A stretch of 64,000 nt of DNA, taken from NCBI RefSeq assembly GCF_003790525.1, contig NZ_CP033635.1; one strand, 5' to 3'. This DNA comes from Escherichia coli (GTDB lineage: Bacteria; Pseudomonadota; Gammaproteobacteria; Enterobacterales; Enterobacteriaceae). This document shows, piece by piece, positions 1,968-28,492 of the stretch. The position numbers and the translations under genes are program-made. Positions within the stretch are counted from its first letter, which is position 1, and each line of letters opens with the position of its first letter. The notes beneath the pieces were generated by a model. The model worked only from the letters and a program-made list of their open reading frames with translations, did no database searches and was not told the origin of the DNA.

Positions 1968-2091
1968 AAAATACTGCGCGTTCCTGGTTTATTTTGCGTT
2001 GCTGTCATGACGTGTTTGCCTTCATTGCCGGGATCGCGCACTTTTTGTTATAACTCCCCGGAGGACACTGTCTGTAATCAGATGGAAACCT

Positions 2092-2526
2092 TTATCTCAG
2101 TGATGTCCTGGTTAATACAGAATACTGCCCCGGACCAAGTAACATAATGGCAATCCCCCCCATGAAATACAGCATTTCATTTTCAAGCCCCCACGCCCCT
2201 ACTTCAGTCAGTGTGAAAAACTTCCCTGTTCCGACCAGAAGCGTGGCAACAATCAGTGTCAGCGCATAAATCAGAGCAGCAGGTCTGGTAAATATCCCAA
2301 GAATGATAAGTACCGGAGCCACGATTTCACCAATATACACACCATAGGCAATAAATCCTGGCAAACCAGCATCCTGCAACATTGATATAATCCAGTTGAC
2401 ACCGTGCTCTATTTTGGCCACACCATGGAACAGCATCAATATACCAAATGTCAGTCTCAGCAACAGAAGACCTGTATCCGGGTAGTCTGTCAGTCTGGTA
2501 AAGAACATATTTATTCTTGCTGGCAT
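2092..2526 (-). CDS. DoxX-family inner membrane protein
   Basis: 144-aa hydrophobic ORF with the DoxX-like N-terminal pattern (LLLLRLTFGILMLFHG). Confidence 0.65.
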   Translation of the reverse strand: MPARINMFFTRLTDYPDTGLLLLRLTFGILMLFHGVAKIEHGVNWIISMLQDAGLPGFIAYGVYIGEIVAPVLIILGIFTRPAALIYALTLIVATLLVGTGKFFTLTEVGAWGLENEMLYFMGGIAIMLLGPGQYSVLTRTSLR

Positions 2527-3085
2527 AAAAAACCTCGTTAAACGATAACAGATAATGAAGAAACTATTATCGTTGAGTCGACACCATCAATTGACCAGAT
2601 ATTTCTGACATTCATAATCAAAAAATTTGACAAAACTGTAAACGTTCGCTTTTTATACCAACACAGAATCCACTCAGTCACACAACCTGTATGCGTCATT
2701 TCCTGCTGTTATTTAAAAAATTTCTCACGTAACAGACATTTCAAAAAAACACTAAAAAATACCAGAACAATTAAGATAATATTACGATCAAATAAGTAAA
2801 AGTCTTTTGTCTGTTATTTTTATTTTCTGTGATTACTGTCATTCTTTCACCACTTTAATTAACATCGCATAATAATCCGGGAGGTGGATAAGATATGAAA
2901 ATTAACTATCCTTTACTGGCGCTGGCGTTGAATTATTACCTGTAGAGCTCACTCCGGATGAGCAGAAAGAACCGATGGTGGCTCTTACTCCACTTTTATC
3001 CACTCCTTCACACAGCACTGTCAGTGCAGGTGCCTGAAAGATCTCGTTCCGTCACGGTAAAATGACGCTGGAAAATTCTTCACCA

Positions 3086-3285
3086 GAACTGCTCACTGTG
3101 TTAATTCGTGAACTGACCTGGGGGGAATGCGTGGTACCCTGCTGTACGGACTAATCGGAACCTGTCGGTTGAACGGTATCGATCCGGAAGCGTATCTGCG
3201 CCATATCCTGAACGTTCTACCGGAATGGCCTTCCTGCATGGTTGATGAACTCCTGCCATGGAATATGGTGCTCCCATTGGGGTAA
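3086..3285 (+). mobile_element. IS66-family transposase 3' remnant
   Basis: Translation ...GTLLYGLIGTCRLNGIDPEAYLRHILNVLPEWPSCMVDELLPWNMVLPLG* matches the conserved C-terminal end of IS66-family transposases; no intact upstream ORF. Confidence 0.6.
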
Positions 3286-3411
3286 GCGTCAATACGGCGT
3301 TCGCTTAACTTAACACTTACTTTCAAAGCCTGATATCTGTCCTACGCTTTTCCTCAATACCACATCGCCAGCAGGAAACAACCTAATGCCTGTGTTGGGG
3401 TCTGAATTACT

Positions 3412-3427
3412 AATGATAATCATTTGC
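3412..3427 (+). promoter_or_regulatory. putative Fur box upstream of sitA
   Basis: AATGATAATCATTTGC resembles the Fur consensus GATAATGATAATCATTATC; sit operons are known to be Fur-regulated. Confidence 0.5.
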
Positions 3428-3449
3428 ATTGTGTATAGCTTATGCTATA

Positions 3450-3471
3450 AAACATAGCCGTTGCTATGTTT
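3450..3471 (+). promoter_or_regulatory. putative MntR operator upstream of sitA
   Basis: Near-perfect palindrome AAACATAGC-cgtt-GCTATGTTT, as in MntR sites of mntH/sitA. Confidence 0.55.
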
Positions 3472-3503
3472 GTTCTAATTTTACTCACTATAGGTACTGA
3501 ATT

Positions 3504-4418
3504 ATGCACTCAATAAAAAAAGTAACCATGCTCCTGGGGTGCCTCGCCCTCACCTGCTCGATAGCATTTCAGGCGAGTGCAACTGAAAAATTCAAGGTCA
3601 TTACAACATTTACCATCATCGCAGATATGGCCAAAAACGTGGCTGGAGATGCTGCAGAAGTCTCATCCATAACCAGGCCCGGTGCAGAAATTCATGAGTA
3701 TCAGCCTACCCCTGGCGATATTAAACGTGCGCAGGGGGCACAACTGATTCTCGCCAACGGTATGAATCTGGAATTGTGGTTCCAGCGCTTTTACCAGCAT
3801 CTCAGTGGGGTTCCAGAAGTGATTGTCTCTTCGGGTGTGACGCCAGTAGGGATCACCGAAGGCCCCTACGAGGGAAAACCTAACCCTCATGCCTGGATGT
3901 CGCCAGATAATGCTTTGATTTACGTCGATAATATTCGTGATGCGTTGATAAAATACGATCCGGCAAATGCAAAAACATACCAACGTAATGCCGATACTTA
4001 TAAAGCCAAGATTACCCAAACCCTTGCCCCCCTGCGTAAGCAGATTGCTGAACTCCCTGAGAATAAAAGATGGATGGTCACCAGTGAAGGGGCTTTTTCT
4101 TATCTCGCACGCGATTTGGGGCTAAAAGAGCTTTATCTGTGGCCGATAAATGCCGATCAACAAGGAACACCCCAGCAGGTACGTAAAGTGGTTGATATAG
4201 TGAAGAAAAATAATATCCCAGCGGTATTTAGTGAGAGTACGGTTTCCGATAAACCAGCGCGTCAGGTTGCGCGTGAAACCGGCGCACACTACGGCGGTGT
4301 GCTCTATGTCGATTCCCTGAGCACAGAAAACGGCCCGGTACCTACGTATATCGACCTTCTGAAGGTTACTACCAGTACGCTGGTGCAGGGAATTAAAGCC
4401 GGGAAAAGGGAGAAGTAA
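3504..4418 (+). CDS. sitA: SitA, periplasmic Mn/Fe-binding protein of the SitABCD ABC transporter
   Basis: 304-aa ORF with signal peptide and metal-binding SBP cluster-9 features; matches SitA from memory. Confidence 0.85.
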   Translation: MHSIKKVTMLLGCLALTCSIAFQASATEKFKVITTFTIIADMAKNVAGDAAEVSSITRPGAEIHEYQPTPGDIKRAQGAQLILANGMNLELWFQRFYQHLSGVPEVIVSSGVTPVGITEGPYEGKPNPHAWMSPDNALIYVDNIRDALIKYDPANAKTYQRNADTYKAKITQTLAPLRKQIAELPENKRWMVTSEGAFSYLARDLGLKELYLWPINADQQGTPQQVRKVVDIVKKNNIPAVFSESTVSDKPARQVARETGAHYGGVLYVDSLSTENGPVPTYIDLLKVTTSTLVQGIKAGKREK

Positions 4419-4560
4419 TGATGCAATCTGCGGGTATTGTCGTTAATGGCGTTACTGTCACCTGGCGAAACGGGCAGAAAGCACTGCGCGATGCATCCTT
4501 CACAGTACCAGGCGGATCTATTGCCGCTCTGCTTGGGGTAAACGGTTCCGGTGAAATCGT
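4418..4560 (+). pseudogene. sitB: sitB remnant (ATPase truncated just after the Walker A region)
   Basis: ORF begins like SitB (GIVVNGVTVTWRNGQKALRDASFTVPGGSIAALLGVNGSG) then diverges into unrelated sequence; sitC and sitD are absent. Confidence 0.7.
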
Positions 4561-4900
4561 CTTGACACGTTTCTGGGCTCGTCATCAGCGGTTGTTGCGA
4601 ATGATCGCCGCCCTGCGATGGTTGATTTATTTTATTGCGCCCCGGCGTCTGCCTTGCCAGGTACCGGAGGCGGGCTCTGAAGGACTGAGTAGGGTGAGCG
4701 CGTCAGGCCGCGAAGTACTGACACGGGAGTTTGTGGCAGGCAGTGAAGTCCTGACCAGGGTAAGGGAGGCGCTGACGTGCAGGTCCTGACTGTCAGCCAG
4801 GCGCATGGTGACTGACTTTCTCAATAACCCGCTGTCAGGCGCTCAACGCCCGACAGCAGGCCATGGCCCGGTGTGCAAAGACCTGACGGCAGGTGTTGTG

Positions 4901-5221
4901 TCACCCGGAGAAGGTAAATCCCTCAAGAGGCAGCAGCTCAGCCAGTCGGTCCTCAGGCCACTCCGGCAGGCGCGTCAGTACGTCCGTCAGCCAGGCATGT
5001 GGCTCCAGACCATTACGCTTTGCTGTTTCCAGAAGACTCATTATCTGTGCCGCGCGTTTGCCGGCCATCAGCGAGCCTGCGAATAACCATGCCTTTCGCC
5101 CCAGCGTGACCGGGCGGATGGCTCGTTCGCAGATATTGTTGTCCGGTGGCACAGAGCCATCATCCAGAAAACGGCACAGCTCATCAGGTCGTTTCAGGAT
5201 ATAGCTGATAGCCTTATGCAA
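4901..5221 (-). mobile_element. IS66-family transposase C-terminal remnant
   Basis: 106-aa ORF (...ICERAIRPVTLGRKAWLFAGS...LETAKRNGLEPHAWLTDVLTRLPEW...) matches the IS66-family transposase C-terminus; the 5' part of the gene is missing. Confidence 0.7.
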
Positions 5222-5694
5222 TGGACTGTCTGGCGGACCGCCTGCTCCTGCTCTTGACGGTTTTTTGCCTTGTATATCAGGTTATAGACGAGAAGATTGT
5301 CGTCTTCGTGGTTTCCGTCAGGAAAAGAGAATGCTCAAAAGTGTATAGTAAGGCGGTCAAACGCATTCGCTGAAATAAGATGTGTCACTTCAGCTTTGCG
5401 TTAACACGACTATTTTTCATCACTCAAGCGGTAGTCCCGGTGACTCACACGTATACGAGTCACCGCTTCAGATTTGAGTATCCGAATTTAAATCAGGGAC
5501 ACAATGGAAGAAGCGAACACTTTCGCATCCTCTTCCTGCAATTCGCAGACTGTCACTCTGCGTCCAGTTCCCTCTTTCCTCAGCAGGTACCAACGCCAGG
5601 CTCCCGACAAAGGTTGACCTGAAACGACCAAATACACAGGAAACAAAATACTGTCAGACAGAACGAGGCGTGCTATACATCACGCCTCAATGCT

Positions 5695-6684
5695 TCAGTG
5701 GCTGATTTTTTTCAGCTGTTCTTCACTCAATCCCGTGATTTTCATGATGGTCTGAAGCCCCATTCCTTCAGCCAACATATTACGCGCCGTTTCCAGTTTG
5801 CCTTCCAGTTGTCCTTCGAGTCGCCCTTCGGCACGGCCTTCCATTCTGCCTTCCATTCTGCCTTCTAGCTTACCGCGCTCCATACCCTGGGCAATACCGC
5901 GCTCAAATCCCTTGACTTCCCCTTCCTGCTTCAGTTGTTCAGCCAGTGTCATTATGTTGCCCTCATGCTGTGGCAGCCGCTCCGCCAGCGTCTGCAAAAA
6001 CCTTACCGTCACATGTTCACTGCCGTTCAGCAGATAGTGGAACAGAGCCTTCGCCAGCTCTTCATTCAGTGAAGTCTGTATCAGCTGAACCAGCCTGTCC
6101 ATCTGCAGCATGATGTCGCGGCTGCGGCTGTGTTTCATCAGCAGCGTCAGTGCCCCCATTCGGCGGTGTTGCATTATCTCATCGTCATCCAGTACCGTCA
6201 CGTCCACCAGGTGGAACGGTCTGGTGTAGATTTTAGCAGCAAGTTCCGGATTTCTGAAACACTCCAGCCAGTTCATGCTGTACGGGTACGGGCTCCGCTC
6301 ACCGTGGTAGAATAACAGCGGGATCACCAGCGGCAGCTCATGGTGCTGTTCAAAGTGACGCTGCATCGCCGCCACCGCATATCTGAGCATCCTGAACGCC
6401 ATAAACGCGTTTTCCGTACTCTGGTGTTCCGCGAGGCAATAAATATACCCCTCCTCACCGCTGACGGTCTTCATGCTGAACAGCGCATCGCACGCATACT
6501 GTTTCAGATCCTGGTCCACAAAGGTACAGGGCTCCAGCCGCAGCGTCGACAGATCACACAACTGCCGGTATTCCGCCGGAAGATGCAGTTCAACAAAATC
6601 ACGGGCCACCTCTGCTGAGGCCATAAACGCCCTGAAGGCGGCATCATGCGGCGTGGGCGTATTTTTCTCTTTCCTGCTGCTCAC
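5695..6684 (-). CDS. Rpn-family recombination-promoting nuclease (YhgA-like putative transposase)
   Basis: 329-aa ORF with PDDEXK-like N-terminal region and the characteristic C-terminal EGRxEGR repeat tail of RpnA-E paralogs. Confidence 0.8.
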   Translation of the reverse strand: MSSRKEKNTPTPHDAAFRAFMASAEVARDFVELHLPAEYRQLCDLSTLRLEPCTFVDQDLKQYACDALFSMKTVSGEEGYIYCLAEHQSTENAFMAFRMLRYAVAAMQRHFEQHHELPLVIPLLFYHGERSPYPYSMNWLECFRNPELAAKIYTRPFHLVDVTVLDDDEIMQHRRMGALTLLMKHSRSRDIMLQMDRLVQLIQTSLNEELAKALFHYLLNGSEHVTVRFLQTLAERLPQHEGNIMTLAEQLKQEGEVKGFERGIAQGMERGKLEGRMEGRMEGRAEGRLEGQLEGKLETARNMLAEGMGLQTIMKITGLSEEQLKKISH

Positions 6685-6918
6685 TGTTTATCTCTTCTGA
6701 ACCAGGTAACATTAACAGAACATGTTTCAGGATATCCGCGCAGTGCGGAACATTACGGCTCACCACTGTGACGGCGGATCATCGCCACCCAGTATCCGAC
6801 AGACCCCTTACTTTGTTCGTAAACATCCTTCCTGCCCCCCTGAATCTCCAGACAACCAATATCACTTAAATAAGTGATAGTCTTAATACTAGTTTTTAGA
6901 CTAGTCATTGGAGAACAG

Positions 6919-7284
6919 ATGATTGATGTCTTAGGGCCGGAGAAACGCAGACGGCGTACCACACAGGAAAAGATCGCAATTGTTCAGCAGAGTTTTGAAC
7001 CGGGAATGACGGTCTCCCTTGTAGCCCGGCAACACGGTGTGGCAGCCAGCCAGCTATTTCTCTGGCGCAAGCAATACCAGGAGGGAAGTCTTACTGCTGT
7101 GGCCGCAGGAGAACAGGTCGTTCCTGCCTCTGAACTTGCTGCTGCCATGAAGCAGATTAAAGAACTCCAGCGCCTGCTCGGCAAAAAAACGATGGAAAAT
7201 GAACTCCTCAAAGAAGCCGTTGAATATGGACGGGCAAAAAAGTGGATAGCGCACGCGCCCTTATTGCCCGGGGATGGGGAGTAA
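6919..7284 (+). CDS. insC: IS2 transposase OrfA (InsC)
   Basis: [56 protein letters not shown]... is the IS2 OrfA sequence. Confidence 0.9.
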
Positions 7285-8147
7285 GCTTAGTCAGCCGTTG
7301 TCTCCGGGTGTCGCGTGCGCAGTTGCACGTCATTCTCAGACGAACCGATGACTGGATGGATGGCCGCCGCAGTCGTCACACTGATGATACGGATGTGCTT
7401 CTCCGTATACACCATGTTATCGGAGAGCTGCCCACGTATGGTTATCGTCGGGTATGGGCGCTGCTTCGCAGACAGGCAGAACTTGATGGTATGCCTGCGA
7501 TCAATGCCAAACGTGTTTACCGGATCATGCGCCAGAATGCGCTGTTGCTTGAGCGAAAACCTGCTGTACCGCCATCGAAACGGGCACATACAGGCAGAGT
7601 GGCTGTGAAAGAAAGTAATCAGCGATGGTGCTCTGACGGGTTCGAGTTCCGCTGTGATAACGGAGAAAAACTGCGAGTCACGTTCGCGCTGGACTGCTGT
7701 GACCGTGAGGCACTGCACTGGGCGGTCACTACGGGCGGCTTCAACAGTGAAACAGTACAGGACGTCATGCCAGGAGCGGTGGAACGCCGCTTCGGCAACG
7801 ATCTTCCGGCGTCTCCAGTAGAGTGGCTGACGGATAATGGTTCATGCTACCGGGCTAATGAAACACGGCAGTTTGCCCGGATGTTGGGGCTTGAACCGAA
7901 GAGCACGGCGGTGCGGAGTCCGGAGAGTAACGGCATAGCAGAGAGCTTCGTGAAAACGATAAAGCGTGACTACATCAGTATCATGCCTAAACCAGACGGG
8001 TTAACGGCAGCAAAGAACCTTGCAGAGGCGTTCGAGCATTATAACGAATGGCATCCGCATAGTGCACTGGGTTATCGCTCGCCACGGGAATATCTGCGGC
8101 AGCAGGCCAGTAATGGGTTAAGTGATAACAGGTGTCTGGAAATATAG
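7242..8147 (+). CDS. insD: IS2 transposase OrfB (InsD)
   Basis: 301-aa ORF with integrase-core catalytic region, overlapping orfA in the -1 frame as in IS3-family elements. Confidence 0.9.
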
Positions 8148-8199
8148 GGGCAAATCCACCTGAATCTGAGGCAGCACCTGGCACGGCTGGGACGGAAGT

Positions 8200-8441
8200 C
8201 GCTGTCGTTTTCAAAATCGGTGGAGCTGCATGACAAAGTCATCAGGCATTATCTGAACATAAAACACTATCAATAAGTTGGAGTCATTACCGTGTTCCCG
8301 ACAGACGACTCGGTGAAAAAAGTGGTGTGGCTGGCAATCCAGTCTGCGTCCCAGAAATGGACGATGCCGTTGAAGGACTGGCGAATGGCAATGAGCCGCT
8401 TTATTATCGAGTTCGGTGACCGCCTGGACGGTCACTTCTGA
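8200..8441 (+). mobile_element. IS256-family transposase 3' remnant
   Basis: Translation FPTDDSVKKVVWLAIQSASQKWTMPLKDWRMAMSRFIIEFGDRLDGHF* matches the conserved C-terminal tail of IS256-family transposases; only this tail is present, immediately right of IS2. Confidence 0.5.
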
Positions 8442-8473
8442 GAAAAGGCATTTACACAGAATCCTAAACAGGC

Positions 8474-9211
8474 TCATGTACAGCGCTGTACCGGGCAATG
8501 GGTAATACCGGTCACAACCGGTAACCCCAGAGACAATGCAACTGTTTTTAACGCAATATACTGGCCGGATGTATCACCCCGGGCAGCCTGAAAACACCTT
8601 TCCACCCGGCATTGTCCGTCAGCACTTATCACCCGCCATGTCTGTTGCAATAAATCCACCCGTTGCGAACATTCTTCATCAACCGTGGCACTGACCCGTG
8701 GATGGCAAATGCTCGTCTGGCTGAGCAGCAACAGGCATCGCATTGTTGCTCCTCCATGTTGTTCCCGCAACCAGCGTAATACCACCGGTGGTGCTGGACT
8801 GGCCGTGTGATTACGTTCAGTAATACGCTCGTGCACCTGTCGGTAAAAGGAAGTACAGAATGCATGAATCTGTTGTCCGTTGATGTTTCCTTCTGCCGAA
8901 TGGAGTGTGAAGTGGACGGCCAGCAGACGCGGCCAGTGATCCACCGCCTGCTGAATAAAACGCCGGATTTCCACCGGCTCTGAAAGTACGGTTTCGGTTA
9001 TTTGCACGATTTGATCCCCTTGAATGTTGCTGAACCGGTGTCGGTACGCAGGAAAGCACGCCGAGACCGGTACGATGCCTGTTACAGCGAAGAACGAGGA
9101 ATGACAGACGGGGGCAGCAGGTCGCCAGCACCAGGGACAGGGCTGATTTCCACAATACCAACGCTGGTATTTTGCACATTGCCAGCGTACCGGCATTACA
9201 ACACGTTTCAT
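8474..9211 (-). CDS. YagK/YfjJ-like (inovirus Gp2-like) protein, third tandem copy; possibly degenerate
   Basis: Central region (RLLAVHFTLH...NGQQIHAFCTSFYRQV...) parallels the two upstream paralogs; an internal Met at 9211 would overlap the alpA-like stop (ATGA). The N-terminal region is Cys/Trp-rich and atypical, so a frameshifted pseudogene is possible. Confidence 0.35.
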   Translation of the reverse strand: MKRVVMPVRWQCAKYQRWYCGNQPCPWCWRPAAPVCHSSFFAVTGIVPVSACFPAYRHRFSNIQGDQIVQITETVLSEPVEIRRFIQQAVDHWPRLLAVHFTLHSAEGNINGQQIHAFCTSFYRQVHERITERNHTASPAPPVVLRWLREQHGGATMRCLLLLSQTSICHPRVSATVDEECSQRVDLLQQTWRVISADGQCRVERCFQAARGDTSGQYIALKTVALSLGLPVVTGITHCPVQRCT

Positions 9212-9444
9212 GCTGCTGCCCCTCGTGATGCCTCGATTCGTTGCTGCATCCACTGCTCCACTTCACTTTTGTACCAGCGGCTGCTGCGCCCCAGTTTGAT
9301 GGGTTTAGGGAAATGGCCTTCACTGATCAGCTTGTAAAACCATTTGTCGGTCATACCAGTGAAGCTGGTGATGTAGTTCATGTCGATCAGGGGATCGTCG
9401 GCACGCAGCAATACGCTGTCGTGACCTGTCATTGAGGTCAACAT
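9208..9444 (-). CDS. AlpA-family prophage regulatory protein
   Basis: Contains ...FTGMTDKWFYKLISEGHFPKPIKLGRSSRWYKSEVEQWMQQRIEASRG, the typical AlpA-like helix-turn-helix of integrative islands. The true start is probably the internal Met at 9381. Confidence 0.7.
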   Translation of the reverse strand: MLTSMTGHDSVLLRADDPLIDMNYITSFTGMTDKWFYKLISEGHFPKPIKLGRSSRWYKSEVEQWMQQRIEASRGAAA

Positions 9445-9512
9445 GGTCAGAATGTCCTCTGTGAGATTTATGAATGTTGGGCAAATGCGGGTGAATCTGC
9501 TGAGCTGAGCTT

Positions 9513-10115
9513 TCAGAGCTGGCCTGCTACGGGATACCAGGGATTACCGGCGAGGTAACGGGCTTCCGGATCGCGCACACCACGACGATCGCGGGCGAAA
9601 TCACTGAACGCCCATATCAGCTCTTTGAGTCTCTCTTCGCAGTCCGGTGAACAACTGTCCAGCACCACATCCCGGGTTATCTGTTTCTGGTACGGTGCCG
9701 CTTCACCCGGTGAGGCGAAGCCCAGCACGTTGCTCCAGGCATCCAGAATCAGCCGATCCAGTTCAGGGCCGTCGAAATACTCCTGCCTGACGCACAGCAC
9801 CACGTGGTATTCCGGCTTTTCAGGATGACGTGTCAGGAGCCAGCAGAGGTCACGTCCGGGGGTTGCATTCATCAGGTCACTGACGGTTTCAATAAAGGCC
9901 ATACCGAACCAGGTCCTGCGGCTGCTGAAGGTATTATCGGGTTCCCACGGCAGACGAAGCAGGATACGTCGTATCCGGGAGCCGGACTGCTCACGCAGCG
10001 CACGGTCAAGAACGCCAATAACTTTGTTCTGATACGAGGGCCAGAAGGGTGCCATGCTGTCGTCGAAATAAGAGAAAGTATTCACAGGATATGCTCCGTT
10101 ATGCGCAGCCCACAA
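9513..10115 (-). CDS. YagK/YfjJ-family (inovirus Gp2-like) protein
   Basis: 200-aa ORF paralogous to 10418..11149; the only in-frame start before an upstream stop is a TTG. Confidence 0.5.
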   Translation of the reverse strand: MWAAHNGAYPVNTFSYFDDSMAPFWPSYQNKVIGVLDRALREQSGSRIRRILLRLPWEPDNTFSSRRTWFGMAFIETVSDLMNATPGRDLCWLLTRHPEKPEYHVVLCVRQEYFDGPELDRLILDAWSNVLGFASPGEAAPYQKQITRDVVLDSCSPDCEERLKELIWAFSDFARDRRGVRDPEARYLAGNPWYPVAGQL

Positions 10116-10417
10116 CGCGTCCTGCCCGGGGATGGATGGGCTGACGGGTTACAGGCTGCGGATGAGGTTGATGGAACAGGTGAAGAACCGACGCTGAGCG
10201 GGAATATCAGGGAAGAACATTCAGGGTGAATGAACTCCGTTGACTTCGGTTCACATCATTAAGCAGGGCGGTAAGGTTTTACCGACAGATTGTTTCCGGG
10301 TGCGGAAGCAGATACCGCTGCTGACTTCATGACGGGTTATCAGAATACGGGATAAGGGCATTGGCTGACTCTCTTACCGTGGCATAAGTTCAGGTACCGG
10401 ATACCGTTTTACCGACC

Positions 10418-11149
10418 TCACCTGCCATCCAGCAAACGCCCCGGCCCACGGCTGCAACCATAATTACGCTGACCGGAACCATTATGCTGCTTCGTTTTAT
10501 TTTTCACGAGATAACTGGCTCTGTTCCTGGCTTTCTGCATCGCTGCCACATCACCACGCTTGATCCAGAGAACAGCGGCTTCACCCGGCTTTTTTTCTGA
10601 AGCCTTCCTGGTATCAGAACATCCACCCGACAAAGGCGTGTCATCGGAAGAAGGGCGAGCATCAGACGATGCTGGTTTACGAAAAGGCTTCCACCTGGAA
10701 AAATGGACCAGGCCATCGCCTTGCCAGGGCTCAAGATGCAGAGCGCTGCACCATGCCTCCTGGATCATCGCCGCCAGCGAAGACGGTTCGCTGAAATCCC
10801 CGAGCGAGCACCAGGTATCTTTGTTGAGCAGCAATATCACGTGATAATGTTTCCTGTTTTCTTCCTCTCCGAACTCCCGGCACCAGAAATAACGCAGGCT
10901 GGTTGCATGCACACGCTGACTGGCACGTCGCTTATGCTGCTGGTAAGCCTGGATTTTGGCTTTCAGGGATTCGAAAAAACGAGAAATCACCGCTGAATCC
11001 GGATCGGGATCCATGATGGTGACAGGCATATACTCAGGGAAACGTAAATCCACCCGGATTAACGAGACGGCACGGTGCTGCGACAGGGCACTGTCGAGAA
11101 GGCTGTCAAAACGGGATAACCAGTAAGCATTGTGTATTGGTTGATTCAT
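10418..11149 (-). CDS. YagK/YfjJ-family (inovirus Gp2-like) protein
   Basis: 243-aa ORF with N-terminal ...AVSLIRVDLRFPEYM... motif recalled from CP4-57 YfjJ / CP4-6 YagK. Confidence 0.55.
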   Translation of the reverse strand: MNQPIHNAYWLSRFDSLLDSALSQHRAVSLIRVDLRFPEYMPVTIMDPDPDSAVISRFFESLKAKIQAYQQHKRRASQRVHATSLRYFWCREFGEEENRKHYHVILLLNKDTWCSLGDFSEPSSLAAMIQEAWCSALHLEPWQGDGLVHFSRWKPFRKPASSDARPSSDDTPLSGGCSDTRKASEKKPGEAAVLWIKRGDVAAMQKARNRASYLVKNKTKQHNGSGQRNYGCSRGPGRLLDGR

Positions 11150-11209
11150 GATGAGAGATCTCCGTTGATTTGGATTGACTTCACATCATTAATCACCGCG
11201 GTAAAACTT

Positions 11210-12720
11210 TACGGCATCATGTCATTAAGCAATGCTACAACTCTCTGATTAAGAGTGATTGAAACGGAACAAACCATCCCGGAACGAAAAGATAATCCTG
11301 CACACAGCAGCAAAACACGCAACAACAGCATGAATGGATTTAAAAACGACATGGACGACGAGAAAAGCCTGAAGGGAAAAGGATCCACAGAACATTCGAA
11401 CAAAACACCAGAAACGCAACCAGAACGCTTCCTGGCAATGCAAATCAACAACAACACCAAAACCTACAGCTTAATCACACAACTCAATCACGAATGCGAA
11501 TGACACGTTTAAAACCTGTTTACAGATAACGTCGTAACAAGATCATCCCCATCAGAATCGATTTTCTTATCTTGAGTATGTTACTTTTCAACATACCTAA
11601 ACGATTAACCACCGATAACGTAAATCTCATCTGAATCAAAACACCAAAACCAATCATCACGTTTTCGACAGAAGAAAAACACCACATCATGACAAAAAGA
11701 ATGACCTTACACGGAAAAGAAAAACGTCAGGAATCGTTAATGCATACCTCAATCTGATTGTTATCAAAACATCCAGAAAGTCGTTTAACAGAATCGTCGT
11801 AAGCACATCGAAAAGAACGTCAGATCACCTCAGGAAAGTTCGGGTTGATTTAGCGTAAAGATACTTTTCTCAGCTTAACGTCGAAACACAAACCAAAAAC
11901 CACAAACAACCAAAGCTCAGGAAAGGTTAAACGTCACATCAGTAAAATCGAATAGCAGATTGATTGCTTAAACAGGAAGGATTGTTTTACAGCAGCATTA
12001 AACTGATTTAGTTAACGTAAAATCAGAACTGACAGGTTTACTAACTTGGATGTGTATCAGTTCAAAAATGTGTACAGCAATGCGTAATGAAACACATTTA
12101 AAGGAGATTAATGGGAAAAGTGTGTAAATGCGTAAACATGCACTAATGAATCACTGAAGGAATACATACAAAACGACTTAATGAAAACATAAAAGGACCT
12201 AATGGAAAAGGTGTATATAATACCATATCCGACATTCTCAACATCTTAAGACATCCATGCAGACTGAATGTTGGTTTCAGTTTTTCACGGTAAGCATGAA
12301 TCTTTTCTGTTCAAAAGCAGAGCAGATTTACTCTGGAATTATTTTTCTTACTCCGTATTCTGTACAGCAAAAACTTGTGCTAACTTTACAGCAAACCATC
12401 ATAATCAGCGTCTGTAGTCCCATCGCTTTACCCCATGAAAGTGAATCCATATGATGCGAGAGAGATAAGTCATCGTATCCGGTAAACACTGCTAACCATA
12501 ACATAAGATCATTCAGTCAGTTTTATCTCTGAACTGACGATTATGGCATGCTCATTTATATGGCTCACAGAGGAGTGTTATTATCTGTAAGCTTTAATCA
12601 TCAAATCACATGACCATACCAAACTGGCGCTATATCAGCTCATTTGACACCCCTTCCCTTTAGATTTCTTTATGTGTTTTTTGTCGATAATTAAAATGTA
12701 ATATGAATTTAATATTTTTA
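11210..12720 (+). other. ~1.5 kb non-coding, strand-asymmetric A-rich tract
   Basis: No ORF of 60 aa or more between 11503 and 12257 in any frame; hand counts on sampled 60-nt blocks give roughly 38-45% A versus 12-23% T on the + strand. Confidence 0.6.
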
Positions 12721-12722
12721 CA

Positions 12723-13946
12723 TCATAAACACCATTTAAAACCATTATCCTGAACATCATACAACAATATATTTTTACTAAAGCATGAATTGTATATTTC
12801 TATTAATTCAGGAAAATTATCAGGATTCACCTTTAAATTCACCTGAATGTTACGCCTAATTTCACCCAGCAGTTTTTCATGCGTGAATTTTATTATTTCT
12901 TTATCATAATCTATAAATTCACACATGTTTTTTATGAATTCAAACCCTTTTCCTGTATACAGTTTGATGAATGCCACAAGAGCAAACATTTCAAGATGCA
13001 GCCATAATGCCACGTGAGTTTTTCGCAAAGTATAAAAAATTGAATTCACCTCTTTTTTACTTATTGCTCTTTTGTACTGTGAGTGTGCCAGATTCAGTAG
13101 TGGCAATTCTCTCTCGATAAATGAAAGTGAAAAAGGCGGGTAAATTGATGTCGGAAATATTTTAGGTCTTATGATATTTTCTATTTCCACCATAAATCTA
13201 TCCATAGAAAGAAAATCATTTTCTTTTTTTATTCTGGTATAGAGACCGCCTTTATTTCTTACTGCGACTTTTTTTCGTGCTACCCCCCCCAACACTTCCT
13301 CTAATTGTTTATTTATCTTCGTATCATTAAATACAACCATTCTTCTTATCATCCTGGGAAGGATGATAATATCAGAGCTTGAATCACTTGAACGGTAATT
13401 ATTATTGATCCATGCAACTTCAAGTTGAAGTATCGGAACATTAAATTCTCTGGGGTTAATAACTCTCTGATATTGTTTTTTGTATGCGTTTTTATTAAGA
13501 TATTCTCTGCTGTAGAGAAACTTATAGCAATATAATCTGACAATATCCTTTATGTAAGATTTAAATGAGTCACCTGTAACAGATATATTTTTTCTGCTCA
13601 GTAACTCCTGTGTATTGAGCCATTCCCGTGACCGGAGTACTCCCTTATGAAGACTTTTTCTTACTTGCATTGAACTGCGCAATTGATGTAATATTTTTGC
13701 GTCCTCAACAATTCTCTTTCCCGTTTGATTTCTTGCAGCATCTATTACTCTGTCAAATATCTCCCGGTCCAGACTTTTGTCATATTTACTGATTATACGA
13801 CAAATATTCCTGACCCGACGGTTCTCTTTATTTCGTTTCCATAACTGATAATGATCATCACATAACCTCAGGGCATTTGCCTCATCAAATTCTGAAACAG
13901 GATTGCTGCATTTTTTATTCCGACAGATACCTTTGTTTTTAGCCAT
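12723..13946 (-). CDS. hypothetical protein, 407 aa, very low GC, N-terminal Cys/His cluster
   Basis: Long uninterrupted ORF in a region of roughly 30% GC (hand count on sampled blocks); K/N/I-rich; N-terminus GICRNKKCSNP...LCDDHY suggests a zinc-ribbon-like motif. No family recognised. Confidence 0.6.
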   Translation of the reverse strand: MAKNKGICRNKKCSNPVSEFDEANALRLCDDHYQLWKRNKENRRVRNICRIISKYDKSLDREIFDRVIDAARNQTGKRIVEDAKILHQLRSSMQVRKSLHKGVLRSREWLNTQELLSRKNISVTGDSFKSYIKDIVRLYCYKFLYSREYLNKNAYKKQYQRVINPREFNVPILQLEVAWINNNYRSSDSSSDIIILPRMIRRMVVFNDTKINKQLEEVLGGVARKKVAVRNKGGLYTRIKKENDFLSMDRFMVEIENIIRPKIFPTSIYPPFSLSFIERELPLLNLAHSQYKRAISKKEVNSIFYTLRKTHVALWLHLEMFALVAFIKLYTGKGFEFIKNMCEFIDYDKEIIKFTHEKLLGEIRRNIQVNLKVNPDNFPELIEIYNSCFSKNILLYDVQDNGFKWCL

Positions 13947-14000
13947 ACTCTTCTTCCCGTCAATGGAAAATTTTTCACGTCCATATTACCTGACTGAGAG

Positions 14001-26080: not shown

Positions 26081-26107
26081 GATAATGCTTATCAAAATTA
26101 TTATCAC
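26081..26107 (+). promoter_or_regulatory. putative Fur box in the fiu promoter
   Basis: GATAATGCTTATCAAAATTATTATCAC resembles the Fur consensus; fiu is a known Fur-regulated receptor gene. Confidence 0.55.
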
Positions 26108-26209: not shown

Positions 26210-28492
26210 ATGGAAAACAATCGCAATTTCCCTGCCAGACAATTTCATTCGCTCACGTTCTTTGCCGGTCTTTGTATTGGCATCACGCCTGTGGCTCAGG
26301 CTCTCGCCGCCGAAGGGCAAATTAACGCGGATGACACGCTGGTTGTCGAAGCATCAACGCCTTCGCTTTATGCGCCACAACAATCTGCCGATCCGAAATT
26401 CTCGCGTCCGGTAGCGGATACTACCCGCACGATGACGGTGATTTCTGAACAAGTGATTAAAGATCAGGGTGCAACCAACCTTACCGACGCGCTCAAAAAC
26501 GTCCCCGGCGTGGGTGCGTTTTTTGCGGGTGAGAACGGTAACTCCACCACTGGCGACGCCATTTATATGCGTGGTGCCGATACCTCTAACAGTATTTATA
26601 TTGATGGCATTCGCGATATCGGCAGCGTCTCGCGCGACACCTTCAATACCGAGCAGGTCGAAGTGATTAAAGGGCCGTCCGGCACCGACTACGGGCGCAG
26701 CGCACCGACGGGCTCGATCAATATGATCAGCAAGCAGCCGCGCAATGATTCGGGCATTGACGCCTCCGCGAGTATTGGCAGCGCCTGGTTCCGCCGCGGC
26801 ACGCTGGACGTCAATCAGGTCATTGGTGATACCACCGCGGTGCGCCTGAATGTAATGGGCGAAAAAACGCACGATGCCGGACGCGACAAAGTCAAAAATG
26901 AGCGTTACGGCGTCGCCCCTTCTGTCGCTTTTGGCCTTGGTACAGCGAATCGTTTGTATCTTAATTATCTGCATGTCACCCAGCACAACACGCCAGACGG
27001 TGGCATTCCGACTATCGGTTTACCGGGCTATTCTGCCCCATCTGCGGGAACAGCGGCCCTGAATCATTCCGGAAAAGTTGATACGCATAACTTTTACGGC
27101 ACGGATTCCGATTACGACGATTCGACCACCGACACCGCTACCATGCGTTTTGAGCACGACATCAACGATAACACCACCATTCGCAATACTACCCGTTGGT
27201 CGCGCGTGAAGCAGGATTACCTGATGACGGCGATTATGGGTGGGGCGTCGAATATTACCCAGCCCACCAGCGATGTGAATAGCTGGACGTGGTCACGCAC
27301 GGCGAATACCAAAGATGTGAGTAACAAAATTCTCACCAACCAGACCAACCTGACCTCGACGTTCTATACCGGCGCTATCGGTCATGATGTCAGTACCGGC
27401 GTGGAATTTACCCGTGAAACGCAGACTAACTATGGCGTTAATCCGGTGACGTTACCGGCGGTAAATATTTATCATCCTGACAGCAGCATTCATCCCGGCG
27501 GCCTGACGCGCAACGGCGCAAACGCCAATGGTCAGACGGATACCTTCGCAATTTACGCCTTCGATACGCTGCAAATCACCCGTGATTTTGAGCTGAACGG
27601 CGGGATCCGTCTGGATAATTATCATACTGAATATGACAGTGCCACCGCCTGCGGCGGCAGCGGACGCGGTGCCATCACCTGCCCAGCTGGTGTGGCAAAA
27701 GGTTCTCCGGTCACCACCGTCGACACCGCCAGGTCGGGCAATCTGGTGAACTGGAAAGCCGGGGCGCTGTATCACCTGACGGAAAACGGCAATGTCTATA
27801 TTAACTATGCCGTTTCCCAGCAGCCTCCGGGCGGCAACAACTTCGCCCTTGCGCAGTCTGGCAGCGGTAACAGTGCCAACCGCACCGATTTTAAACCGCA
27901 AAAAGCCAACACCAGCGAGATTGGCACCAAATGGCAGGTTCTGGATAAACGCCTGTTGCTCACCGCCGCGCTGTTCCGTACTGATATCGAAAATGAAGTT
28001 GAGCAAAATGATGACGGAACTTACTCGCAATACGGTAAGAAACGCGTCGAAGGCTATGAGATATCCGGGGCCGGGAATATCACCCCCGCGTGGCAGGTGA
28101 TTGGCGGCTATACCCAGCAAAAAGCAACCATCAAAAACGGCAAAGATGTTGCCCAAGATGGTTCCTCATCGCTGCCCTATACGCCGGAGCACGCCTTTAC
28201 CTTATGGAGCCAATATCAGGCAACCGATGATATTTCCGTTGGTGCGGGCGCACGGTATATCGGCAGTATGCATAAAGGTTCTGACGGCGCGGTGGGAACG
28301 CCAGCGTTTACCGAAGGTTATTGGGTCGCCGACGCTAAACTGGGGTATCGGGTTAATCGCAATCTCGACTTCCAGCTAAACGTCTACAACCTGTTTGATA
28401 CCGATTACGTCGCCTCAATCAACAAGAGCGGCTACCGTTATCACCCGGGCGAGCCAAGAACCTTCTTGCTCACGGCCAATATGCATTTCTGA
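26210..28492 (+). CDS. fiu: TonB-dependent catecholate siderophore receptor Fiu
   Basis: 760-aa ORF matching Fiu; TonB box and C-terminal aromatic residue (F). Confidence 0.95.

What the first reader, a model, noticed from the sequence alone, without database searches (positions are those of the whole stretch)
3086..5221. sitA with intact Fur/MntR operators but truncated sitB, bracketed by inverted IS66-family transposase tails
sitA is complete and preceded by recognisable Fur and MntR operator motifs. sitB breaks off just after its N-terminal nucleotide-binding region and sitCD are missing. Two IS66-family transposase C-terminal fragments lie on opposite strands on either side (3086-3285 and 4901-5221), implying IS-mediated deletion. 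The result is a still-regulated but transport-incompetent remnant, or an orphan metal-binding protein.
Basis: partly seen in the sequence, partly recalled or inferred. Interest (0 to 1): 0.45.

Follow-up and report, generated by a model that had tools for sequence, protein, structure and literature searches.

The report
Decayed sit operon: sitA kept
This is an ordinary decayed copy of the E. coli manganese/iron uptake operon sitABCD in a genomic island: only the binding-protein gene sitA and its metal-responsive promoter survive, and sitB is fused at a 7-base overlap to the tip of a dead IS66-type insertion sequence.

Summary

- **sitA** (3504-4418) is intact. It keeps a 15/19 Fur box (3409-3427) and a perfect MntR palindrome (3450-3471).
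- **sitB** keeps only 45 codons. It breaks inside the Walker A motif (GVNGSG|K), not after it.
- **sitC and sitD** are absent from the 64 kb window.
- **IS66-family transposase tails** lie on both sides, on opposite strands.

- The two tails come from different IS66 subgroups and share no DNA similarity.
- The upstream relic (2903-3320) also sits in front of intact sitABCD operons in other strains. It played no part in the loss.
- The break is a single junction. sitB is joined, across a shared GTTCCGG (4545-4551), to a point 5 bp inside the end of the downstream relic (4545 to about 5258).
- In strain AR_0085 the same relic keeps its full end and lies next to an unrelated gene, while that strain's sitABCD is intact.

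The best reading is microhomology-mediated illegitimate recombination at an IS end. It fused the left part of a sit island to the right part of another island.

Nine complete E. coli genomes, mostly from poultry, share the exact junction, and RefSeq already marks sitB as a pseudogene there. The closest of them also has an intact sitABCD beside uspF.

This is ordinary and of low interest.

The parts
2903..3126 (+). Upstream IS66-family relic, part 1: 3' two-thirds of a tnpA-like gene. It has stop codons and lacks the left end.
   Evidence: 85.8% DNA match to tnpA of an IS682-type element, mapping to L013 3201-3424 inside tnpA 3005-3430. The translation contains stops.
3129..3320 (+). Upstream IS66-family relic, part 2: last ~52 codons of an ISEc23/IS682-like tnpC plus a degenerate right terminal repeat (...ACACTTAC against ...ACGCTTAC).
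   Evidence: Pfam IS66_C 2.8e-15. About 83% DNA match to the ISEc23 tnpC 3' end. Alignment to ISEc23/IS682 ends. The same relic precedes intact sitABCD in other strains.
3321..3503 (+). sit promoter/operator region. Homology to the common uspF-linked sit locus begins at 3321.
   Evidence: hits H18-H25 start at query 522, which is window 3321. Alignment.
3409..3427 (+). Fur-box-like site ACTAATGATAATCATTTGC, 15/19 to GATAATGATAATCATTATC.
   Evidence: 2 sites at >=15/19 in 64 kb, 0.25 expected in shuffles. The core TAATGATAATCATTT is invariant across sit locus types.
3450..3471 (+). MntR-box-like perfect palindrome AAACATAGC-CGTT-GCTATGTTT.
   Evidence: unique in the window, none in shuffles. 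Invariant across sit locus types.
3504..4418 (+). sitA: intact periplasmic Mn/Fe substrate-binding protein, 304 aa, with a signal-peptide-like N-terminus.
   Evidence: Identical to the RefSeq-annotated SitA WP_112047416.1 locus in Br_112_kylling.
4418..4551 (+). sitB remnant: the first 45 codons, ending inside Walker A (GVNGSG). The ORF then reads on into IS-derived sequence up to a stop at 4789.
   Evidence: RefSeq marks the equivalent as an incomplete pseudogene.
4545..4551 (.). Junction microhomology GTTCCGG, shared by sitB and the terminal repeat of the downstream IS66-family relic.
   Evidence: Three-way comparison of intact sitB (L008), the window, and the AR_0085 relic with a complete end (L007).
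4552..4900 (-). Non-coding 3' tail of the downstream IS66-family relic (ISEc49-like group). It lacks its terminal 5 nt.
   Evidence: 78% match to complete elements. Termini and an 8-bp target duplication were defined in L005. 99.4% match to the AR_0085 relic.
4901..5258 (-). C-terminal ~115 codons of the downstream IS66-family tnpC. It is truncated at its 5' side.
   Evidence: Pfam DDE_Tnp_IS66 9.8e-19 and IS66_C 7e-18. NCBIfam transpos_IS66 positions 299-387 of 387. DNA homology to full tnpC runs to about 5255.
5262..5373 (+). 3' fragment of a relE/stbE-type toxin gene, fused to the truncated tnpC. This is a second illegitimate junction.
   Evidence: RefSeq annotation of the identical locus. 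Sequence comparison with the full-length relE of 23CRST013.

Best explanation
The region is the decayed left end of a sitABCD cassette carried on an integrative genomic island that lies between glnH and glnP.

**What happened.** One illegitimate recombination event joined sitB codon 45 to a point 5 bp inside the terminal inverted repeat of an already defective ISEc49-like IS66-family element. The joint used a 7-bp match, GTTCCGG. That match is part of a wider resemblance between the sitB P-loop coding sequence GTAAACGGTTCCGG and the IS end GTAATGTTCCGG. Everything between the two points was lost: the rest of sitB, sitC, sitD and whatever lay beyond. The result welds the left part of the sit island to the right part of a CP4-like island module (relE', rpn, inovirus Gp2-like, yeeP-like GTPase, antirestriction, cbtA/yeeU).

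**What the upstream relic is.** It is older baggage of the sit island and is unrelated to the loss.

**What remains.** The Fur/MntR-controlled promoter and sitA are untouched. SitA is probably still made and exported under iron or manganese limitation. It cannot drive uptake on its own. Where a second sitABCD exists, as in the closest complete genome, it could serve as an extra binding protein for that transporter.

**Shown:** the anatomy, the junction sequence, the ancestral states in other strains, and the second operon in the proxy genome.

**Inferred:** the mechanism (microhomology-mediated joining, possibly started by a break at the IS end), the order of events, and expression of SitA.
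For: - Homology to intact sitB stops at 4551. Identity is 199/200 to the left of the junction and 45/200, a chance level, to the right.
- Homology to the AR_0085 relic starts at 4545, with 196/200 identity to the right.
- In AR_0085 the relic end reads GTCATGTTCCGG. That is 11/12 to the GTAATGTTCCGG terminus of complete relatives, whose ends are fixed by an 8-bp target duplication GCATTTAT. There it abuts the C-terminus of an unrelated ABC ATPase.
- AR_0085 also carries intact sitABCD with the same upstream relic.
- The relic in AR_0085 already has the same tnpC/relE' truncation. It was therefore dead before it became joined to sitB.
- Nine complete genomes share the junction.
- The window to the right of the junction follows the AR_0085 and 23CRST013 island module and then core genes glnP, glnQ, ybiO and fiu.
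- The promoter and operators are identical to those of intact loci.
- SitA is full length with its ligand motifs.
- An intact second sitABCD lies beside uspF in Br_112_kylling.
Against: - The ancestral arrangement on which the deletion acted is not observed. In AR_0085 the two partners are about 179 kb apart and the sit island sits at a different chromosomal site (ulaD/E), so the event may have been an inter-element recombination rather than a simple deletion.
- A junction only 5 bp from an IS end is unlikely for a random deletion. This suggests some transposase or IS-end involvement that cannot be demonstrated here.
- Expression of sitA, and any interaction with a paralogous SitCD, is untested.
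- The window's own genome is not among the complete RefSeq genomes, so a second sit locus is shown only in a proxy.
Confidence: 0.8

Rival explanations
1. Deletion by homologous recombination between the two flanking IS66-family copies, which is the reading the first reader implied.
For: Both flanks carry IS66 C-terminal domains.
Against: - There is no DNA similarity between the two tails, and only 42% aa identity over 43 residues.
- The upstream relic is unchanged at intact sitABCD loci.
- The copies are inverted, so recombination between them would invert the segment, not delete it.
- The break lies at the end of the downstream relic and in sitB, not within the upstream relic.
Confidence: 0.02
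2. The ISEc49-like element transposed directly into sitB. A later IS-adjacent deletion then removed its left part together with distal sitB and sitCD.
For: - IS66-family elements insert widely, and a complete relative shows standard ends and an 8-bp duplication.
- The region shows other IS66-associated deletions, for example strains that break at window 5042 next to a full IS66.
Against: - The sitB joint lacks the terminal 5 nt of the IS (GTCAT/GTAAT) and has sitB sequence in their place.
- The same relic, with the same internal truncation, exists in AR_0085 with a complete end inserted in a different gene. The relic therefore predates its junction with sitB and could not have transposed by itself.
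Confidence: 0.1
3. The apparent truncation is a sequencing or assembly artefact, and an intact sitBCD follows in reality.
For: None beyond the general possibility.
Against: - Sequence after 4551 is unrelated to sitB rather than frameshifted (45/200 identity).
- The identical junction occurs in nine independently assembled complete genomes.
- No sitBCD sequence occurs elsewhere in the window.
Confidence: 0.01
4. sitA is retained under selection as a stand-alone periplasmic metal-binding protein, or as a second binding protein for the paralogous SitBCD. It is not a neutral remnant awaiting decay.
For: - The ORF, signal sequence, ligand motifs and operators are intact in all nine genomes.
- SitA is 297/304 aa identical to the SitA of the intact uspF-linked operon in the proxy genome.
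Against: - The nine genomes are 99.8-100% identical across the locus. Too little time has passed for decay to show.
- There is no expression or binding data.
- One carrier chromosome has no second sitA-like site (GPEC1040).
Confidence: 0.25

Closest known systems
sitABCD (Salmonella SPI-1-linked; Shigella and ExPEC/APEC chromosomal and ColV-plasmid copies): Mn2+/Fe2+ ABC importer repressed by Fur and MntR
   Same: - sitA, its promoter and both operator motifs are conserved. DNA identity is 94.7% to the common uspF-linked E. coli locus and 97.7-98.7% to island-type intact loci.
- Repression of sitABCD by Fur and MntR is documented for Salmonella (PMC8970401, which cites Ikeda et al. 2005).
   Different: Only 45 codons of sitB remain, and sitC and sitD are gone. 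This locus alone cannot encode a transporter.
Yersinia pestis YfeA (PDB 5UXS), a cluster A-I metal substrate-binding protein
   Same: The alignment covers residues 24-297 at E = 5e-124. The His/His/Glu/Asp ligand motifs are conserved.
   Different: YfeA is encoded with its YfeBCD(E) partners. Here the partners at the locus are missing.
IS66 family insertion sequences (ISEc23/IS682 group upstream; ISEc49-like group downstream)
   Same: Both relics carry IS66 transposase C-terminal domains. The downstream group has ends GTAAT(A/G)TTCCGG and an 8-bp target duplication in a complete relative.
   Different: Both copies here are dead fragments. They lack tnpB, most of tnpC and one or both ends. They belong to different subgroups and do not form a composite transposon.
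Short-homology (microhomology) illegitimate recombination and IS-adjacent deletions in enterobacterial genomic islands
   Same: The joint falls at a 7-bp shared sequence beside an IS terminus. Neighbouring strains show further IS66-adjacent deletions.
   Different: The IS terminus itself is not preserved, which a transposase-made adjacent deletion would predict. Five terminal bases are lost.

Membership tests
SitA / cluster A-I metal substrate-binding protein (Pfam PF01297 ZnuA) | Full-length SBP domain | tested here: met
   Pfam ZnuA at 289 bits (cut-off 29), covering profile positions 1-262 of 263. YfeA 5UXS at 5e-124 over residues 24-297.
SitA / cluster A-I metal substrate-binding protein (Pfam PF01297 ZnuA) | His, His, Glu, Asp metal ligands and an N-terminal export signal | tested here: met
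   The motifs EIHEY, PHAWM, SEGAF and VDSL are present and aligned to the same YfeA motifs. A hydrophobic N-terminus MHSIKKVTMLLGCLALTCSIAFQASA is visible in the sequence. The identity of the ligands rests on established knowledge of the family.
Functional SitABCD ABC importer | ATPase SitB with Walker A lysine, Q-loop, signature motif, Walker B and H-loop | tested here: not met
   The ORF shares only 45 residues with SitB and ends at GVNGSG before the K-S/T. Pfam finds no ABC_tran domain. The NCBIfam SitB model is matched at positions 1-50 of 274, scoring 72.5 bits against a cut-off of 393.
Functional SitABCD ABC importer | Permease genes sitC and sitD adjacent | tested here: not met
   blastn of an intact operon against the whole window matches only up to 4559, of which the true homology ends at 4551.
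Fur/MntR-regulated promoter | Fur box and MntR inverted repeat upstream of sitA | tested here: met
   A 15/19 Fur match and a perfect 9-N4-9 palindrome, both conserved across locus types. The MntR consensus is recalled from the literature, not retrieved here.
Fur/MntR-regulated promoter | Repressor binding and metal-dependent transcription | not testable with these tools
   Needs reporter fusions or footprinting. Regulation is documented for the Salmonella homologue only (PMC8970401).
IS66-family insertion sequence (active element) | tnpA, tnpB and full-length DDE tnpC between terminal inverted repeats, with an 8-bp target duplication | tested here: not met
   The upstream relic has only partial tnpA and the last ~52 codons of tnpC. 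The downstream relic has only the last ~115 codons and a tail lacking 5 terminal nt. Neither has a target duplication.
IS66-family insertion sequence (derivation) | Sequence homology to IS66-family transposase | tested here: met
   Pfam DDE_Tnp_IS66 and IS66_C. NCBIfam transpos_IS66. DNA matches to annotated ISEc23, IS682 and ISEc49-like elements.
Composite transposon | Two copies of the same IS bracketing the cargo, with usable outer ends | tested here: not met
   The flanking relics are from different subgroups with no DNA similarity. Both are truncated on their outer sides, and their preserved right ends face inward.

The most novel reading that the evidence does not exclude
The P-loop-coding stretch of sitB (GTAAACGGTTCCGG) acted as a pseudo-end for an ISEc49-like IS66 element whose terminus reads GTAATGTTCCGG. 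On this reading the fusion was promoted by the IS end, through transposase-induced breakage followed by microhomology repair, rather than being a random deletion. The surviving sitA, still under Fur/MntR control, would be kept because it supplies extra binding protein to the paralogous uspF-linked SitBCD.
Probability: 0.15. Interest if true: 0.3.

Novelty: already known. Interest (0 to 1): 0.1.

Why it matters
It matters little beyond annotation hygiene.

- Typing schemes that score 'sitA present' as a virulence marker would count this locus even though it encodes no transporter. In such strains, sit function depends on another copy.
- It is a clean, fully resolved example of island decay. The ancestral states of both partners are visible in other genomes, and the join is a 7-bp microhomology at an IS end.
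- It shows that inverted IS fragments bracketing a gene need not be the cause of an adjacent deletion.

Tried and rejected
- **sitBCD displaced elsewhere in the window, for example by inversion:** none found.
- **DNA similarity between the two IS tails, or other copies in the window:** none found.
- **The window's own genome among complete RefSeq E. coli:** the sit region matches nine genomes at >=99.8%. Window 8000-14000 has no match better than about 95%, and the window departs from the best proxy after the IS2 at about 8158. A second sit locus could therefore be checked only in a proxy.
- **Terminal inverted repeats of the complete relative by automatic repeat finding:** this failed. They were found by reading the ends and the 8-bp duplication.
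- **Literature:** the primary paper on the sit promoter (Ikeda 2005, PMC545731) is not held. A search for the MntR box sequence and for truncated sitA/sitB with IS66 gave nothing relevant.
- **Rfam scan of 2000-7000:** nothing above threshold.
- **Consensus promoter scan:** it did not pick up the sitA promoter. A TTGCAT-16-TATAAA candidate at 3424-3451, overlapped by both boxes, is my own reading.
- **The ABC ATPase fragment next to the relic in AR_0085 as a displaced piece of sitB:** rejected. Its translation (ADHYLVMSRGAIIRQGKGEDMETDGGRGLVSI) is unlike the SitB C-terminus.
Full report
**What is in the sequence**

The window is E. coli chromosome. ORF listing and domain searches give the following picture.

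- sitA is a complete 304-aa ORF at 3504-4418. It matches Pfam ZnuA over the full length at 4.6e-86.
- A 123-aa ORF at 4418-4789 has no Pfam domain.
- Two short ORFs carry the IS66 C-terminal domain. One is at 3127-3285 on the plus strand (2.8e-15). The other is at 4901-5221 on the minus strand, with DDE_Tnp_IS66 at 9.8e-19 and IS66_C at 7e-18.
- SitA matches Yersinia YfeA (PDB 5UXS) at 5e-124 across residues 24-297 and keeps the EIHEY, PHAWM, SEGAF and VDSL ligand motifs.

**Operators**

- A 15/19 match to the Fur consensus lies at 3409-3427. Only two sites that good occur in the 64 kb, against 0.25 expected in shuffles.
- A perfect AAACATAGC-N4-GCTATGTTT palindrome lies at 3450-3471. It is unique in the window and absent from shuffles.
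- Both motifs are identical in strains with an intact island-type operon. They are invariant in the more distant uspF-linked sit locus, which is 94.7% identical.
- That sitABCD is repressed by Fur and MntR is documented for Salmonella (PMC8970401).
- The MntR consensus itself is from my own recollection, because the primary paper is not held.

**The break in sitB**

- An intact operon from strain CFSAN061770 aligns to the window only as far as 4559. Nothing from distal sitB, sitC or sitD occurs anywhere else in the window.
- Base-by-base comparison puts the true end of sitB homology at 4551. The last few bases of the BLAST alignment are a gapped artefact.
- The remnant is 45 codons and ends GVNGSG, before the Walker A lysine.
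- The NCBIfam SitB model is matched at positions 1-50 of 274 only.

**The upstream IS66 relic**

- It is larger than reported. Window 2903-3126 matches the 3' two-thirds of an IS682-type tnpA at 85.8%.
- Window 3129-3320 matches the last part of an ISEc23/IS682-type tnpC and its right end. That end is degenerate here...ACACTTAC against ...ACGCTTAC.
- Homology with the common uspF-linked sit locus starts exactly at 3321.
- The same relic, in the same place, precedes intact sitABCD in CFSAN061770, AR_0085 and 23CRST013.
- It is therefore old baggage of the sit island and is not connected with the loss of sitBCD.

**The downstream IS66 relic**

- The sequence from about 4552 to about 5255 matches complete IS66-family elements of the ISEc49-like group at about 78%. 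This covers a 350-nt non-coding tail and then the last ~115 codons of tnpC on the minus strand.
- In a complete relative (strain SCU-308) the ends are GTAATATTCCGG... and ...CCGGAACATTAC. They are flanked by an 8-bp target duplication, GCATTTAT.
- The right side of the relic is itself a junction. tnpC homology stops near 5258, and a 3' piece of a relE/stbE toxin gene starts near 5262.

**The informative comparison: strain AR_0085**

- AR_0085 carries the same relic at 99.4% identity, with the same tnpC/relE' truncation and the same rpn neighbour.
- There its end reads GTCATGTTCCGGTGAAATCG. That is 11/12 to the family terminus.
- It abuts the C-terminus of an unrelated ABC ATPase.
- AR_0085 also has an intact island-type sitABCD elsewhere.

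The three sequences line up as follows:

| Sequence | Left of overlap | Shared | Right of overlap |
|---|---|---|---|
| Intact sitB | ...GGGGTAAACG | GTTCCGG | AAAATCG... |
| Window | ...GGGGTAAACG | GTTCCGG | TGAAATCG... |
| AR_0085 relic | ...CCGCCGTCAT | GTTCCGG | TGAAATCG... |

- To the left of the overlap the window is 199/200 identical to sitB and 53/200 to the relic flank.
- To the right it is 196/200 identical to the relic and 45/200 to sitB.
- The joint is therefore a 7-bp microhomology located 5 bp inside the IS terminus.
- By my own rough calculation, seven or more shared bases at a random joint have a probability of a few in ten thousand.
- The sitB P-loop coding sequence GTAAACGGTTCCGG also resembles the whole IS end GTAATGTTCCGG.

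**Mechanism**

I conclude that the loss was a single illegitimate, microhomology-mediated recombination between sitB and the end of a relic that was already dead.

- It was not recombination between the two IS66 tails. They share no DNA similarity, are 42% identical over 43 aa, and are inverted.
- It was not a clean transposition into sitB, because the terminal 5 nt are missing.
- The joint lies very close to an IS end. This suggests that a break at that end, made by a transposase supplied in trans, may have started the event. That step is inference.

**Context**

- Right of the junction the window follows the AR_0085 and 23CRST013 island module: relE', rpn, an IS2 insertion, an inovirus Gp2-like gene, a GTPase, DUF932 and an antirestriction gene.
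- 23CRST013 aligns to the window from about 8640, and in that genome the module continues through radC and yeeU/cbtA to DUF4942 genes and then core glnP, glnQ, ybiO, fiu, dinG, rhlE and ybhF. By that alignment the window reaches glnP at roughly 20.6 kb.
- In the best proxy genome, Br_112_kylling, the left part begins with an integrase next to glnH.
- The locus is thus a chimeric island between glnH and glnP. Its left part derives from the sit island, which sits at ulaD/ulaE in AR_0085 and 23CRST013.
- The ancestral configuration on which the event acted is not observed.

**Distribution and redundancy**

- Nine complete genomes carry the identical sitA-sitB' junction at >=99.8% identity. Most are from chickens on several continents. 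RefSeq already annotates sitB there as an incomplete pseudogene.
- Eight of the nine chromosomes have at least one more sitA-like site.
- In Br_112_kylling I located that site. It is an intact sitABCD beside uspF, and its SitA is 297/304 aa identical to this one.
- The window's own genome is not in the complete RefSeq set, so this check is by proxy.

**Verdict**

- The object is an ordinary, already annotated pseudogenised operon in a decaying genomic island.
- The only mildly unusual point is how cleanly the microhomology joint at the IS end can be resolved.

Noticed in passing
window 1 to ~20600; L001 3041-3259; L008 5096-5329; L015 12350-13329: The island family carrying sit sits inside operons rather than at a tRNA gene. 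In the Br_112_kylling/window lineage it lies between glnH and glnP, which splits glnHPQ. In AR_0085 and 23CRST013 it lies at the ulaD/ulaE boundary. The integrase alleles differ between the two sites (WP_001131672.1 against WP_053287687.1). The target sites were not examined.
   Followed up: partly
window 5042; L004 8243-10706: Five complete genomes (strain 135, PK-F-10122, GPEC1040, TUM9803, HCM-27C-1) share the window sequence only up to 5042. There a full IS66 element follows (tnpA, tnpB, frameshifted tnpC). In Br_112_kylling that element lies about 9 kb further on. This looks like a second, independent IS66-adjacent deletion in the same region.
   Followed up: partly
window 5695-6684 (minus strand), especially 5791-5865: The Rpn/YhgA-like gene has a C-terminal run of E-G-R/K-type repeats (GRMEGRMEGRAEGRLEGQLEGKLE). 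Alignment to Br_112_kylling needs overlapping pieces here, which indicates repeat copy-number variation between strains.
   Followed up: no
window 6874-8158: An IS2 copy (orfA/orfB) is inserted just right of rpn. The window and its best proxy genome diverge immediately after it. In the proxy the glnP-side core genes lie about 1.6 Mb away, consistent with an IS-mediated chromosomal rearrangement in that strain.
   Followed up: partly
window 3270-3288 and 4526-4544: The sitB P-loop coding stretch (GCTCTGCTTGGGGTAAACG) is 79% identical to the inner part of the upstream IS66 right end (GCTCCCATTGGGGTAAGCG). This is probably chance. It is a second resemblance between this sitB segment and IS66-family ends.
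   Followed up: no
window 4552-4900; L005 4182-4325: The 350-nt region downstream of tnpC in this IS66 subgroup is conserved among relatives. RefSeq annotates a 47-aa hypothetical ORF on the opposite strand there. The region contains GAAGTnCTGAC-like repeats. Its function is unknown.
   Followed up: no
window 26081-26099 (minus strand): This is the only other >=15/19 Fur-box match in the window. It lies just upstream of the ORF at 26210-28492, which corresponds to fiu, a known iron-regulated receptor gene.
   Followed up: no
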